The notes under the pieces were generated by a model. The model had not been told where the DNA came from. It searched no databases and worked only from the letters and a program-made list of their open reading frames with translations. Positions 4,736 through 54,541 of a DNA stretch of 64,000 nucleotides are shown here, piece after piece. Both the position numbers and the translations under genes were made by a program. This stretch comes from Octopus vulgaris (taxonomy: Eukaryota): the NCBI GenBank assembly GCA_951406725.2, contig OX597833.1:63984001-64048000 (forward strand). The letters are read 5' to 3'. How positions within the stretch are numbered: the first letter of the stretch is position 1; every line of letters begins with the position of its first letter.

Positions 4736-5320
4736 ATAAAATGTAAAATAACAAAAACTCAAATAGCGAATTATTATTTCATTCAACTTATTTTTAAACA
4801 GACTTTTCTATTCACAAACAAATTTGAAATGTTTGTCGCTCGTTGTTGAAATGTCACCAGTTAATTTTAAGTGTATATCGCATCATATTTTCCAAAAATA
4901 AAAAATATAAATATATATATATATATATATAGGCGTTTTTTGTATTGTGAATGCGTTTGAGGGAGTGTTGGCTTCTCTGGTTCCCTAATCTGAATGCATT
5001 CCTAATTAAATACATTGCCAGCGTGTTGAGATTCATTTTTGAAATCGGTTATCTTTAATCTGTTTTCCTTTATTCGTTTCTGTCAATGGACTGCGGCCAT
5101 GCTGGAGTAGCGCCTCTGTATGGGGGTTCAGTTGAACAAATTGACTCTCTATATAGGGTTGTTGGAATGGTTGTGTGGTAAGACGATTGTTTCCTGAACA
5201 TGTAGATCCGTGTTCAGTCCCTTCGCGTGGATGTGTCTTTGGCAAGCGTCTTCTATTATAGCCCCGGGTTGACCAACGCCTTACGAGTGGACTTAGTTGA
5301 TGGCAACTGAAAGGAGCCCG

Positions 5321-5372
<52 letters not shown>

Positions 5373-5546
5373 GTGTATATTTAAAGGGCTAAAAAACAAC
5401 TAGGTGGTCAGCCGTGTGCTAGAAGTAGATCACCTACGATCAAACTAAAAGGAAAAGGATGATCTCTAGAGGAAAATTCAGCGGACACCAGAACAATATG
5501 CGGGCAAGACAGATGAAAATTATATAAAAAAAAAAAACAGAATTAC

Positions 5547-5621
5547 TCACAGACCGGTGGTTTCGTCTATTAACGAATGAATCACTTATGTAATCTCTCG
5601 TCCGTAGGCTCGTCAGTGCGA
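5547..5621 (-). ncRNA. Type I hammerhead ribozyme with intact core and long stem II
   Basis: Minus strand: ucgca CUGACGA gccuac..(hairpin)..uagac GAAA ccaccgg UC^ uguga. Stem I ucgca/uguga, stem III ACC/GGU, GUC cleavage triplet. Confidence 0.75.
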
Positions 5622-5789
5622 TCGTTCCACAGGTAATGTAATTTGTAAAATTAACCACTATTTTCCGCATAAAAACAGACACGTGCTCAGTTTCACCGAT
5701 TACATTGGGGTTCATTTCAAATATCTTAGTTCTGGCGCGCTAAAATTCCGGAAACAAAATCTGCAGTTAATATTATTTATATATATATA

Positions 5790-6160
5790 TCTCTATATAT
5801 AAACGGCAGTTTGTCTGTGTGTGTTTCTGTGTGTCTGTTAGGTTGTACCCCTCACCCTGACCACGGCTTTCAACCGATTCTGATGAAACTTGACACACAC
5901 ATAGCCCAATGTCATAATTCAAAACTAACGCAGCGAAAATTTTGAAAAGTTCCCCCAGTTCTGAAAAAAATCGATAAATTCGACATGGGGTCGAGAATCA
6001 GAAACACAAACCACAGACTGTCTAGGGGACGCAACACGACCTTTTTAACTAAAAAAAAAAATTTACCATCATTTTTTTCCCATTTTTTGGCTATAACTCT
6101 CTAAAAATGCTTTATAGTTATTTCCCTTACAAACCCGAGCAACGCCGGGCGATACTGCTA

Positions 6161-6161
<1 letters not shown>
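5790..6161 (+). mobile_element. Non-autonomous Helitron
   Basis: Starts a|TCTCTATATAT, has the subterminal hairpin CCCGAGCAACGCCGGG (6134-6149), ends CTAG|t, and sits between A and T of an (AT)n tract. Confidence 0.85.
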
Positions 6162-6201
<40 letters not shown>

Positions 6202-6216
6202 AATGTTTTTCGATCG

Positions 6217-6286
<70 letters not shown>

Positions 6287-7269
6287 GTACCTATCTATAT
6301 ATCTATCTGTGTTTCTGCACACACACACACACACACACACACAGACATACACACACAGACATACACACTTGTTATTTAAGATTTGTGAATCTTGACTTGC
6401 CGATCAACCAATAAATAATATAAGAACCTCTGAATATTTTCTGTCCAATACTCCTTTACCCAATATTTACAACGTAGTTTTTAGAGTTTTCCCGCCAGCT
6501 TCGAGATTCACTGTTCCACAAAATACTTAACGCTTCCCCAAAACGTCTCAACCCTTACAAAGTCAACCCTTACATATATATATATAAACACATACACACA
6601 GTCGCGCGCATGCACACATACACACACCAACACACATATATATATATACGACGGGCTTCTTTCTGGCTATGTCCACAAATCCATTCCTAAGCCTGAGGTG
6701 ATAGTTACAAGACACCCAAGCCACCACGCACTAGGACTGAACTCGGAACCACACGATTGGAAACGAAAGCTTCTTACCACGCAGCCACGCCCGTGATCGG
6801 GTCTAATATACAACAAATCGATAGCGTTCAATATCAATATCTTCACTGCACTAACCGCTTCTACATTATATCAAGAACTGGTGTCCGCCATCTGGAATTT
6901 TCCGGTCCAGTGGATGTTTGAGATGAAAGACGTGTAGACAAATTTGAACATGGCGATACATTTTGACAAGTATTTATACTGGATATCTGTTTGAAATCTG
7001 ATATAATTGATAATGATTATCTCTCGCAATGTATAGAATTCGAAAATCCTCTTGCTGCTTCTTGGAGTCTTCGTGAAATGTCAAAGTAATTACCATCGCG
7101 ATTATTATTGCATAAGGAACGTACAAGAGCGAAGATACTGCCCTTGTCACATTTCCATACATGCGCTCTCTCTACCGAAGCTGGACTCAGTATTACGGTT
7201 AGAATCTAAATATTGTATGAAGTAGTTGGACATTGACTGTATATTTCTATCTAAAAGCAACGAAAACGA

Positions 7270-7490
<221 letters not shown>

Positions 7491-7494
7491 ATTT

Positions 7495-7700
7495 TTTCTT
7501 CTCTTGGCACATGGCCCGAAATATTTGGTGAGGGTGCCAATTGATTAGATCGACCCCAGTACGCAACTGGTTCTTAATTTATCGACCTCGAAGGGATGAA
7601 AGGCAAAGTCGACCTCGGCGGAATTTGAACTCAGAACGTAAAGACAGACGAAATACTGGTAAGCATTTCGCCCGACGTGCTGAACGTTTCTGCCAGCTCG
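7495..7700 (-). mobile_element. SINE family B monomer
   Basis: GATGAAAGGCAAAGTCGACCTCGGCGGAATTTGAACTCAGAACG core plus head. Confidence 0.8.
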
Positions 7701-7715
7701 AATAATAATAATGAC

Positions 7716-7775
<60 letters not shown>

Positions 7776-7789
7776 TATAATAATAATAA

Positions 7790-8330
7790 ATGCCCTGAGC
7801 AGTACCAGGCAGTAGCTCTCATGGCTTCTGATCTTAACTGATTGGAAGTGTTATCATGTACATTGTTTTGTCTTGGTATAAAAGATGGGCTACAGCAAAT
7901 ATTCTGCTCAATACCACAGATTTGCTTGTCAGTTGTTTGACCTTAACCAGTTGAGCATGTCCCTTAGTGGCTGACGATATGTGCATCTCTGATCACGAGC
8001 AGAAGTAGTGGGGGAGCATCATAGCCATGTGTTGAGAGGGATTCTTTGAGGTTTGGATAATTCACCTCTGGAAACATGGGTGTTTCGTTCAACATCCTTA
8101 AACAACCCTTATTTAGGGATAGGTTACTCGACCAGAAGAACATACTAACTGGGCCCCACCTCTAAGGTCATGCGCTGTTTATCTTGATATGAAATCACCA
8201 TGTTGCGCACATATGGTTGTGATGCATGTGCCTGGTGTACCCTTATCAGACAGGTAGTCATGATGGGTATATTGGGCTTCGTATATTTTACCCCAGTGTC
8301 ACTTTGATGGCATGCACTGCTCTCTCACTC
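7790..8330. mobile_element. Unclassified ~540 bp element inserted cleanly into (AAT)n
   Basis: Complex sequence bounded on both sides by AATAAT runs; no recognisable ORF or TIR. Confidence 0.55.
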
Positions 8331-8379
8331 AATAATAATAATAATAATAATAGTAATAATAATAATGATAACAATAATA

Positions 8380-8380
8380 A

Positions 8381-8411
<31 letters not shown>

Positions 8412-8690
8412 AAAAAGGAAAAAATAAGTAGAAGAAGAAGTAGATATGAAGAAGAAGAAGAAGAAGAAGAAGTAGAAGAAGAAGAAGAAGAAAAAAAAAG
8501 AAGAAGAAGAAGAAGAAGAAGAAGCAGAAGAAGAAGAAGAAGAAGAAGAAGAAGAAGAAGAAGAAGAAGAAGAAGAAGATGGAAGAAGGCAAAAGAAGAA
8601 TGCAAAGGAAAAGAAAGTAAAGAAAGAAGGAAGAAGGCGAAGAAGAAGAAAGAAGAAGAAGGAGAAGAAAAAGAAGAAGCTGAAGAAATA
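8380..8690. repeat. (GAA)n microsatellite
   Basis: Direct reading. Confidence 0.95.
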
Positions 8691-46011: not shown

Positions 46012-46634
46012 CATATATATATATATATAAATCTTAAATCTGCTGTAATATTTACAGCTTTTAATAAAATGTTGTAGTATGAAACAATTGTACTAAATTG
46101 CCGGATCCATTCTTGTTGCTTATTTTTTTTTATTATAATCACCCCGCATATTTTTTTATGGGTAACAACATTAAAAATTCTGGTGCATCTAAATTAAGTG
46201 CCATATTCATTTGAATCTAAATTGCTGCTGAACTTATATATATATATATATATACATCAATAATAAATCTCTGAGCGAGGTATAAACAGTAGCTGCAACA
46301 CATCGTGAAGTATATATTGCCACTTAAATGTGGCTAACCCTTAAGGGTGGATGCTACTGTAGCTTTGTAGCCCCAGGAGAACACATCCTCCAGCTGGCTA
46401 TTGACACACTTTCTATCCTCCTGGGGCTACAAGCTTCAGTAGCATCCACCCTTAAGGGTTAGCCACATTTAAGTGGCAAATATACTTCACGATGTCGTGC
46501 AGCTACTGTCTATTCCTCGCTCAGAGATTTGTTATTGATTGTTTACACTTTTTCGATATCAGTGACTCTTCGTCACTGGTAAAAGGATATATTTGCAAAG
46601 GGAGGCCTACTTTTCATCGACACCTCATGATTGT

Positions 46635-46679
46635 CACACGATGATGACGGGTTAATACTCAGGAACTCGAGTCCGTGTG
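46635..46679 (+). ncRNA. Type I hammerhead ribozyme, copy 1 (stems intact, core mutated)
   Basis: cacacg ATGATGA cgggttaatactca GGAA ctcgag TC^ cgtgtg; palindromic stem III ACTCGAGT. Confidence 0.75.
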
Positions 46680-46974
46680 TATCATAGGTTGAAGGCCGGA
46701 AGGATAGCTTCCCTTTACAAATATTGATAGGGCACAGAAAGTGTGTCAATAGCCAGATGGAGGAGGTGTCCTCCTGGGGCTACAAGCTACAGCAGCATCT
46801 ACACTTAGTGGGTAGCCACATTTAAGTGGCAAATATACTTCAGATTGTCGTGCAGCTTCTGTTTATACCTCGCTCAGAGATTTGTTATTGCTTGCTTACA
46901 CTTTTTTGATATCAGTGACTCTTCGTCACTGGTAAAAGGATATATATTTGCAAAGGGAGGCCTACTTTTCATCG

Positions 46975-47020
46975 ACACTGGCTGATGACGCGTCAATATC
47001 CAGAAAGTCGAGTCCGTGTG
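46975..47020 (+). ncRNA. Type I hammerhead ribozyme, copy 2 (core intact, stems damaged)
   Basis: acactgg CTGATGA cgcgtcaatatcca GAAA gtcgag TC^ cgtgtg. Confidence 0.75.
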
Positions 47021-47185
47021 TATCATAGGTTGAAGATAGGAAGGATGGCTTCCCTTTGCAAATACTGATAGGACACAGAAAATGAGTCAAGAGCCAGCTG
47101 GAGGAGGTGTCCTCCTGGGGATACAAGCTACAGTAGCATCAACCCTGAGGGGTTAGCGACATTTAAGTGGCAAATATACTTCATG

Positions 47186-47282
<97 letters not shown>

Positions 47283-54207: not shown

Positions 54208-54491
54208 GTTATCGCCATAATAATATGGCAGTCTTATAAATATAAGACTAAAGCTGTCGCTGATTAGCTCCAAGAGGCCACCGCCTCTAGCTAGCTATTT
54301 GACACACAACCTGCGTCCATTACAAACCTTCGAACAGGGAGATCAGCCGCTTCATCCTGCTAGTCAGACAGCTGCAGACATGTTTCAGGGCTGTTGCCCT
54401 TTATCAATGCAGCGTAGTCAGACCCGCAGGCGTCGCTACTGACCGTCTCTGTTGGAAGACTTTAGAGAGACTTAATAATCTAAAATATTTC

Positions 54492-54495
<4 letters not shown>
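54208..54495 (-). mobile_element. Solo retrozyme-like monomer (~290 bp) in (TA)n, structurally homologous to the 46.3-47.2 kb unit
   Basis: Hammerhead at the tip of a long stem, followed by the shared motif at 54265-54317 and a terminal GCCA..TGGC hairpin. Confidence 0.8.
54371..54413 (-). ncRNA. Type I hammerhead ribozyme, U3-A8 core variant with all stems perfect
   Basis: Minus strand: gcugca UUGAUAA agggc-aaca-gcccu GAAA caug UC^ ugcagc; palindromic stem III ACAUGU. Confidence 0.85.

Positions 54496-54541
<46 letters not shown>

What the first reader, a model, noticed from the sequence alone, without database searches (positions are those of the whole stretch)
54265..54317. Unnamed RNA motif with compensatory changes, shared by two divergent hammerhead elements at the same distance from the cut
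Seen: the 46 kb unit (46731-46782, 47072-47123, inverted 46368-46414) gives the consensus gacaca-gaaag-tgtgtc aa tagcc-agct-ggagga-GGTG-tcctcc-tgg-ggcta. The 54 kb element, minus strand, reads gacgca-ggttg-tgtgtc aaa tagct-agct-agaggc-GGTG-gcctct-tgg-agcta. Three pairs change compensatorily (C-G to U-A, G-C to A-U, A-U to C-G) and one becomes a G-U wobble. The GGUG loop and AGCU/UGG internal loop are retained (AGAU in copy 1), while the first loop varies freely. The motif begins ~57 and ~59 nt 3' of the hammerhead cut on the ribozyme strand, and in both elements it is followed by further hairpins ending GCCA..TGGC. The ribozyme stems themselves share no sequence. Inference: a selected cis-element such as an RT recognition/priming site, a protein-binding site or a second catalytic module. 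I do not recognise it as a described family.
Basis: partly seen in the sequence, partly recalled or inferred. Interest (0 to 1): 0.88.

Follow-up and report, generated by a model that had tools for sequence, protein, structure and literature searches.

The report
Conserved docking hairpin in hammerhead retrozymes
Thousands of copies of a small, protein-free jumping RNA in this animal genome keep the same folded hairpin at a fixed distance between their self-cutting ribozyme and the ends of their inserted copies, and this hairpin is likely the handle by which they borrow another transposon's copying enzyme.

Summary
The motif is real and larger than reported. Both window elements belong to one superfamily of 340-365 nt hammerhead retrozymes (non-coding Penelope-type repeats): 6,540 genomic matches versus 2 in the control, at least 13 subfamilies. 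In the 12 subfamilies aligned, hairpin P2 starts 74-80 nt after the ribozyme cut and is the most conserved 33-nt window. Stems change compensatorily between subfamilies, while inserted copies decay at the background rate, so selection acts on amplifying masters. Copies end at two fixed sites, 50-69 and 100-129 nt after P2, mostly in (TA)n, the Penelope 'tail' signature also shown by active Neptune elements here. Corrections: the elements are homologous throughout (49% identity); the apical loop is G-R-N-G, not GGUG; one young subfamily has AUCU, not AGCU; no autonomous Neptune end examined carries the motif. No Rfam match, no pseudoknot, no sign of a second ribozyme. Best reading (inferred, 0.45): a protein-docking site that recruits Neptune reverse transcriptase in trans, analogous to the UnaL2/UnaSINE stem-loop. 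It supplies the conserved motif that a 2020 review said animal retrozymes lack. Function is untested.

The parts
54265..54297 (-). P2 of family B: 5-bp stem, 4x3 internal loop (AGCU/UGG), 6-bp stem, GGUG loop; the conserved core of the finding
   Evidence: most conserved 33-nt window of the unit
54301..54317 (-). P1 of family B: 6-bp hairpin with a free loop
54371..54413 (-). Type I hammerhead, U3-A8 core variant, palindromic stem III; predicted cut between 54377 and 54376
   Evidence: 6-bp stem I covaries across subfamilies; U3-A8 variant described in PMC4209133; cleavage not tested
54214..54229 (-). GCCA..UGGC hairpin, invariant 4-bp core, about 12 nt before 3' end 1
54253..54261 (-). 5' strand of long-range helix P3 (its partner lies in the tail, which this copy lacks)
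54210..54460 (-). Family B retrozyme copy, 5'-truncated, ending at 3' end 1 in (TA)n
54460..54497 (+). Short inverted tail piece at the 5' side of the B copy
46731..46782 (+). P1 (46731-46747) and P2 (46750-46782) of family A, unit 1; internal loop mutated to AGAU in this copy
46635..46679 (+). Hammerhead of unit 1, predicted cut after 46673; this copy has two core changes and is probably inactive
   Evidence: family majority has an intact core
46789..46862 (+). 3' domain of unit 1: P3 strands 46789-46796 and 46855-46862 enclosing a small hairpin, the GCCA..UGGC hairpin (46815-46830) and the single strand that holds 3' end 1
46560..46900 (+). Family A unit 1 (about 341 nt) with tail
46913..47187 (+). 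Family A unit 2, decayed motif at 47072-47123, ends at 3' end 1 in (TA)n
46258..46414 (-). Inverted 5'-truncated A copy, P2 at 46368-46400, running to 3' end 2
46416..46547 (+). Partial A unit from the 3' half of P2 to the tail

Best explanation
The motif is the most conserved hairpin of a superfamily of non-coding hammerhead retrozymes whose copies end at two fixed sites downstream of it, and it likely works as a protein-docking site that would recruit a Neptune Penelope-like reverse transcriptase in trans. Shown: the fold, its covariation, its fixed spacing to the ribozyme cut and to both 3' ends, selection only between subfamilies, and the same two-end, (TA)n-targeted insertion pattern in active Neptune elements of this genome. 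Inferred: tandem units are transcribed, cut by dimeric hammerheads and possibly circularised; Neptune protein binds P2 (invariant A-x-C-U/U-G-G loop and G..G apical loop, read in an open or U-U/C-G/bulge form), nicks (TA)n DNA and starts cDNA about 60 or 110 nt downstream, inside and just past the P3 domain. P2 ends 50-69 nt before end 1, the same distance at which the ribozyme cut lies in three autonomous Neptune families (55-75 nt), so P2 may stand in for the site the enzyme uses on its own RNA.
For: Abundance and control: 2952 vs 411; 3543 vs 94; 6540 vs 2. Fixed geometry: cut to P2 74-80 nt in 12 of 12 subfamilies printed; ends at +50-69 and +100-129 nt in 6 of 6 families mapped. P2 has 29 parsimony changes against a median of 59 per 33-nt window. 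11 of 17 pairs change on both sides, 90% of cells pair, slid controls 32-55%. Within families copies decay alike in and outside the motif and only 3 of 122 changed pairs are double changes. Active Neptune ends: of 20 copies 12 end 55-64 nt and 4 end 90-98 nt after the cut, 4 variant copies not mapped; a second Neptune group ends 64-75 nt after the cut and has the same UUGAUAA/CAUG ribozyme core as family B. In the Anolis Poseidon element RT starts internally at two sites and needs template from about 90 nt before to about 55 nt after the first (PMC11167929); here P2 start to end 2 spans about -93 to +45-60. UnaL2 precedent: internal loop with bulge and U-U needed for retrotransposition (PMC1636434).
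Against: No autonomous end examined holds the motif: none in 5 loci of the active family, 30 endonuclease loci, 29 loci with the wider model (its 3 strong hits are separate retrozyme insertions) or 20 3' ends. In SINE/LINE pairs of the stringent type the tail is shared, here it is not. Only 50 of 150 listed (6136 candidate) endonuclease places were looked at. Families were found through the P2 pattern, which inflates its apparent conservation; a subfamily with AUCU escaped those patterns. No binding, cleavage or transposition data; the Anolis element is of another clade and its truncation series is coarse.
Confidence: 0.45

Rival explanations
1. P2 binds a host RNA-binding protein that stabilises, exports, ligates or brings the retrozyme RNA to ribosomes or granules where Neptune protein is made, as SRP9/14 does for Alu (recalled analogy). 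The RT itself would read only the 3' domain.
For: The motif is retrozyme-specific and missing from autonomous ends; invariant unpaired bases across subfamilies 49% identical fit a slowly evolving host partner; retrozymes accumulate as circles ligated by a host ligase (PMC7229834).
Against: A host adaptor would not need a fixed spacing to the 3' ends; no likeness to SRP or other Rfam families.
Confidence: 0.25
2. P1-P2 is a folding or regulatory element: it insulates the long stem that presents the hammerhead from the 3' domain, or tunes cleavage and ligation, with no ligand of its own.
For: Constant distance to the cut; both hairpins form in the predicted linear and circular monomer of the young subfamily.
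Against: Pure spacers would not keep 6 of 7 internal-loop bases and two loop G's invariant in 13 subfamilies while ribozyme stems turn over; no consistent pairing of P2 loops with the ribozyme.
Confidence: 0.13
3. The conserved letters are a DNA-level internal promoter or factor site, and the hairpin is secondary.
For: P2 holds a palindrome that is an E-box (CAGCTG) in the A, C, D, G and H groups; retrozymes need transcription.
Against: B subfamilies lack the E-box; changes follow RNA pairing incl. G-U on the ribozyme strand; no tRNA-like part.
Confidence: 0.06
4. P1-P2 (with the downstream domain) is a second self-cleaving or ligating ribozyme.
For: Invariant internal-loop bases next to a known ribozyme.
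Against: No pseudoknot, no hairpin-, twister-, pistol- or HDV-type core (recalled features); only about 9 invariant unpaired bases; no copy ends inside the motif. Rfam also missed the hammerhead itself, so its silence is weak.
Confidence: 0.05
5. The likeness is common descent alone, with no selection on the structure.
For: The two window elements are homologous throughout; families were found by the motif.
Against: For the two window families, which were not chosen by pattern search, 27 of 33 identical against 49% overall and all six changes compensatory; within-family decay breaks 86 of 122 changed pairs.
Confidence: 0.03

Closest known systems
Metazoan non-LTR retrozymes (Cervera and de la Pena 2020, PMC7229834; Li et al. 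preprint 10.64898/2026.07.22.740005)
   Same: Non-coding 340-365 nt units, type I hammerhead in each unit, tandem and single copies, co-occurring Penelope-like elements.
   Different: Those papers describe no conserved structure outside the ribozyme; PMC7761336 says the repeats show no conserved motif pointing to a partner. Here a multi-helix conserved domain and a two-end tail are present; no sequence likeness to an autonomous pseudo-LTR was found, unlike 21 of 57 Xenopus families. RNA circles not shown here.
Penelope-like element pseudo-LTR with internal RT initiation (Poseidon of Anolis, PMC11167929; Neptune of this genome)
   Same: Hammerhead with palindromic stem III, two 3' ends defining a tail, inverted 5'-truncated copy, AT-rich or (TA)n targets.
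   Different: No ORF; about 110 extra nt (3' rod strand, P1, P2) between cut and end region; tail 45-60 nt instead of 30-40; GC-rich structured domain where the Neptune ends are AT-rich.
UnaL2/UnaSINE 3' stem-loop (PMC1636434)
   Same: Short hairpin with an internal loop that can hold a U-U pair and a bulge, a G-containing apical loop, upstream of the RT start, kept in non-autonomous elements.
   Different: Different retroelement class and sequence; there the stem-loop is shared by LINE and SINE and lies next to a 3' repeat, here it is absent from the autonomous ends examined and lies 60 nt upstream of an internal start.

Membership tests
Non-LTR retrozyme | Type I hammerhead in each repeat unit | tested here: met
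   Core, stem II, palindromic stem III and 5-6 bp covarying stem I in 12 of 12 subfamily majorities
Non-LTR retrozyme | Non-coding unit of 150-450 nt in tandem or single copies | tested here: met
   Units of 341-364 nt, tandem dimers and trimers; no Penelope ORF joined to any copy
Non-LTR retrozyme | Self-cleavage of the RNA | not testable with these tools
   Needs in vitro transcription
Non-LTR retrozyme | Expression as linear and circular RNA | tested here: inconclusive
   Only contigs of runs guessed to be RNA; head-to-tail joints fit tandem DNA as well
Penelope-type mobilisation | Two 3' ends defining an optional tail | tested here: met
   +50-69 and +100-129 nt after P2 in 6 of 6 families
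Penelope-type mobilisation | Inverted 5'-truncated copy and microsatellite target | tested here: met
   Window 46258-46414 and many loci; TA-rich flank at 26 of 48 A ends and 30 of 47 B ends, fewer in old families (1 of 22 in C)
Pseudo-LTR of an autonomous Neptune element | Motif present in the terminal repeat next to an RT-endonuclease ORF | tested here: not met
   sampling incomplete (50 of 150 listed places)
Stringent SINE/LINE 3' stem-loop (UnaL2 type) | Same stem-loop in autonomous and non-autonomous partner | tested here: not met
   Not found in the autonomous elements examined
Stringent SINE/LINE 3' stem-loop (UnaL2 type) | Needed for RT binding and retrotransposition | not testable with these tools
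   Needs binding and transposition assays
SECIS element (seen in Naiad PLEs, PMC8557442) | UGA/GA non-canonical quartet, 11-13 bp helix II, apical AA (recalled) | tested here: not met
   Internal loop A-x-C-U/U-G-G, 5-6 bp upper stem, no Rfam SECIS hit
Known small ribozymes other than hammerhead | Family core sequence and pseudoknots (recalled) | tested here: not met
   No Rfam hit at E<=10, no consistent loop pairing; Rfam also missed the hammerhead, so sensitivity is limited
Described repeat-library entry (Repbase, Dfam) | Sequence match to a named consensus | not testable with these tools
   No such library is held

The most novel reading that the evidence does not exclude
P1-P2 is a parasite-specific RNA decoy: it sits where autonomous Neptune elements have their hammerhead relative to the RT start, has no sequence counterpart in them, and captures Neptune reverse transcriptase in trans, a telomerase-like enzyme recognising a defined RNA fold. 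It would be the first defined RT-recruiting element of an animal retrozyme.
Probability: 0.22. Interest if true: 0.75.

Novelty: new variant of a known kind. Interest (0 to 1): 0.52.

Why it matters
How Penelope-like reverse transcriptases (the closest relatives of telomerase RT) choose their RNA, and which enzyme moves animal retrozymes, are open questions; a 2020 review states that animal retrozymes show no conserved motif to point to a partner (PMC7761336). This superfamily gives a 33-nt covarying hairpin with about nine invariant unpaired bases, mapped RT start sites, young subfamilies, and an intact, recently active Neptune element in the same genome: all the parts for a direct binding and trans-mobilisation test. 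A portable RT-recruiting tag would also interest retrotransposon-based gene writing. The element class itself is known, and the function is not shown.

Tried and rejected
Rfam: no hit at gathering in the window; at E<=10 only generic hairpin hits. No tRNA. A loose pattern (70 vs 1) pulled an abundant 'family E' that proved to be the 3' end of an unrelated zinc-finger LINE with no hammerhead and scores at most 10 bits with the model: dropped from all counts. Neptune fragments beside retrozymes (L072, L261, L285, L291, L181) are separate insertions divided by (TA)n. A deep 741-nt contig led to one B copy in a rearranged locus, not to an ORF-bearing element. Pseudoknot scan of P2 loops: 6-nt matches in at most 2 of 13 subfamilies at one offset; 3-4 nt matches are chance-level. 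Sequencing runs: no RNA holder listed; contigs only, so no start, end or strand. The exact pattern found 0 matches in metagenome and viral contigs, which says little about other animals. No earlier notes of this scan. A 12-nt antisense likeness and a short GCAGCAU likeness between Neptune ends and retrozymes are too short to use. Neptune ORF1 gave no Pfam or Atlas lead. A genome-wide covariance-model search and R-scape were not available.

Full report
Observation. The two 52-53 nt stretches fold as stated, P1 (6 bp) then P2 (5 bp, 4x3 internal loop, 6 bp, 4-nt loop), better than shuffles and better than their opposite strands. Hammerheads lie upstream on the same strand and the spacing of 57 and 59 nt is right. 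The second tandem copy is decayed and the inverted copy lacks half of P1. Between the family majorities P2 is identical at 27 of 33 positions against 49% over the unit, and the 6 differences are 3 compensatory pairs (chance 6.5e-5 and 1e-4 for the two tests). Rfam gives nothing at gathering and only generic hairpins at E<=10; it also misses the hammerheads, so this negative is weak.

What the elements are. The two window elements have 2224 and 1819 candidate places (40 scored each). Units are 341-364 nt, non-coding, single or tandem, often with an inverted 5'-truncated copy, in (TA)n. Pattern searches gave 2952 vs 411, 3543 vs 94 and 6540 vs 2 control matches and exposed further subfamilies. 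I aligned 12 subfamily majorities, later 13; single-copy variants (C2, C3, I, J, K) were left out of the tree counts but used in the 29-copy alignment, and one majority (H) rests on few copies. All 12 have a type I hammerhead with covarying stem I and a palindromic stem III, cores CUGAUGA, UUGAUAA, UUGACAA and others, and P2 starts 74-80 nt after the cut. They align end to end at 44-92% identity.

The motif. P2 is the most conserved 33-nt window (29 parsimony changes, median 59, best non-overlapping window 48). In 29 real copies 11 of 17 pairs change on both sides and 90% of cells pair, against 32-55% when partners are slid; the shuffle control is exceeded for cells and score but not for the number of pairs (91 of 500), and relatedness inflates such counts. 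On a tree built from sequence outside P2, five P2 pairs show double changes, two of them more than once; the G group has lost both terminal pairs. With loops left free, 93 of the first 100 matches have AGCU and 92 have UGG, by my count, with no recurring alternative. Yet a young subfamily (95-99% identity among copies) has AUCU and a bulge, so the invariant is A-x-C-U/U-G-G and my earlier patterns were biased. The apical loop is G-R-N-G; GAUG carries most depth in runs of four organism labels. Inserted copies decay alike in and outside the motif (for example family C 8.7% loop, 7.7% stems, 8.8% rest; family B lower in the motif, on few changes), and 3 of 122 changed pairs are double (copies are the best-scoring ones): selection acts on amplifying masters, not on host copies.

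After P2 a long-range helix P3 (starting +4 to +8, partner ending +79 to +86) forms in the predicted fold of all 10 majorities tested with different sequences, enclosing a small hairpin, an invariant GCCA/UGGC hairpin and a single strand (my helix finder picked another helix in 2 of 10 and the alignment-based fold did not recover P3). Copies end in two clusters, +50-69 and +100-129 nt after P2, in 6 of 6 families. This is the tail signature that PMC11167929 traced to two internal RT start sites.

The partner. An intact two-ORF Neptune-type element with hundreds of near-identical copies is present (clade label from its C-x-C linker, my knowledge). Its copies end 55-64 or 90-98 nt after its hammerhead cut in (TA)n; another group ends 64-75 nt after the cut and shares the ribozyme core of family B. 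None of these ends carries P1-P2: 5 loci; 30; 29, overlapping; 20 ends. I saw 50 of 150 listed endonuclease places, about nine Neptune-type families by eye, one Naiad-like remnant and one host gene exon; no Poseidon-type element turned up. A partner with the motif may have been missed.

Mechanism. Shown: fold, covariation, spacing, master-level selection, Penelope-type ends. Inferred: P2 is a protein site used for mobilisation. Its distance to end 1 equals the cut-to-end distance of autonomous Neptunes, and the span from P2 to end 2 (about -93 to +45-60 around end 1) resembles the template the Anolis enzyme needs (about -90 to +55). The UnaL2 hairpin is the functional precedent. Absence from autonomous ends keeps a host adaptor as the main rival. 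A second ribozyme finds no support.

Papers seen: PMC8557442 passages; the preprint parts 1-3 of 5, supplements not seen; PMC11167929 parts 1-2 of 4, supplements not read, and its Fig. S2 may show a comparable fold; PMC4209133 parts 1-2 of 4; PMC7229834 parts 2-4 of 6, supplement not read; PMC7761336 passages; PMC1636434 abstract and discussion; PMC10886601 two reference-list passages. Nine searches listed no description of this motif; subscription papers and repeat libraries were not searchable.

Verdict. A real, selected RNA domain not found in Rfam or the papers searched, inside a known class of element: new variant of a known kind, interest 0.52.

Noticed in passing
L121 (G000:C9:10671500-10681400), ORF1 7437-8669 (-), ORF2 5146-7497 (-): Very young tandem Neptune-type element of 4.43 kb with a separate upstream ORF of about 411 aa without Pfam or Atlas match, overlapping an ATG-less RT-endonuclease frame; hundreds of near-identical copies.
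   Followed up: partly
L309-L329, e.g. L315:1403-1767: Young B-type subfamily, 364-nt tandem units at 95-99% identity, internal loop AUCU plus a bulge; best candidate for a still-active retrozyme.
   Followed up: partly
window 54401-54407 (-) and L170-L192 Neptune ends: Family B and one Neptune group share the U3-A8 hammerhead core and the CAUG stem III palindrome, which could allow mixed dimeric ribozymes.
   Followed up: no
window 46561-46578 and equivalents in families B, C, D, G: Another covarying 6-7 bp hairpin at the 5' side of each unit, just after the tail.
   Followed up: no
window 46258-46547: Near-perfect inverted repeat of about 130 bp arms formed by the inverted copy; a possible source of double-stranded RNA.
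   Followed up: no
L194-L221 (one search hits): Abundant 3' end of an unrelated LINE with C2H2-type zinc fingers that matches the loose motif pattern by chance.
   Followed up: yes
L197:9-413 (-), L288: Decayed RT and endonuclease fragments of a different Penelope-like clade, probably Naiad remnants.
   Followed up: no
L261, L285, L291, L072, L181: Retrozyme copies and Neptune insertions lie side by side in the same (TA)n tracts.
   Followed up: partly
L283, L293, L296 3' regions: A Neptune family whose 3' region is internally duplicated and shows no canonical hammerhead by my scan.
   Followed up: no
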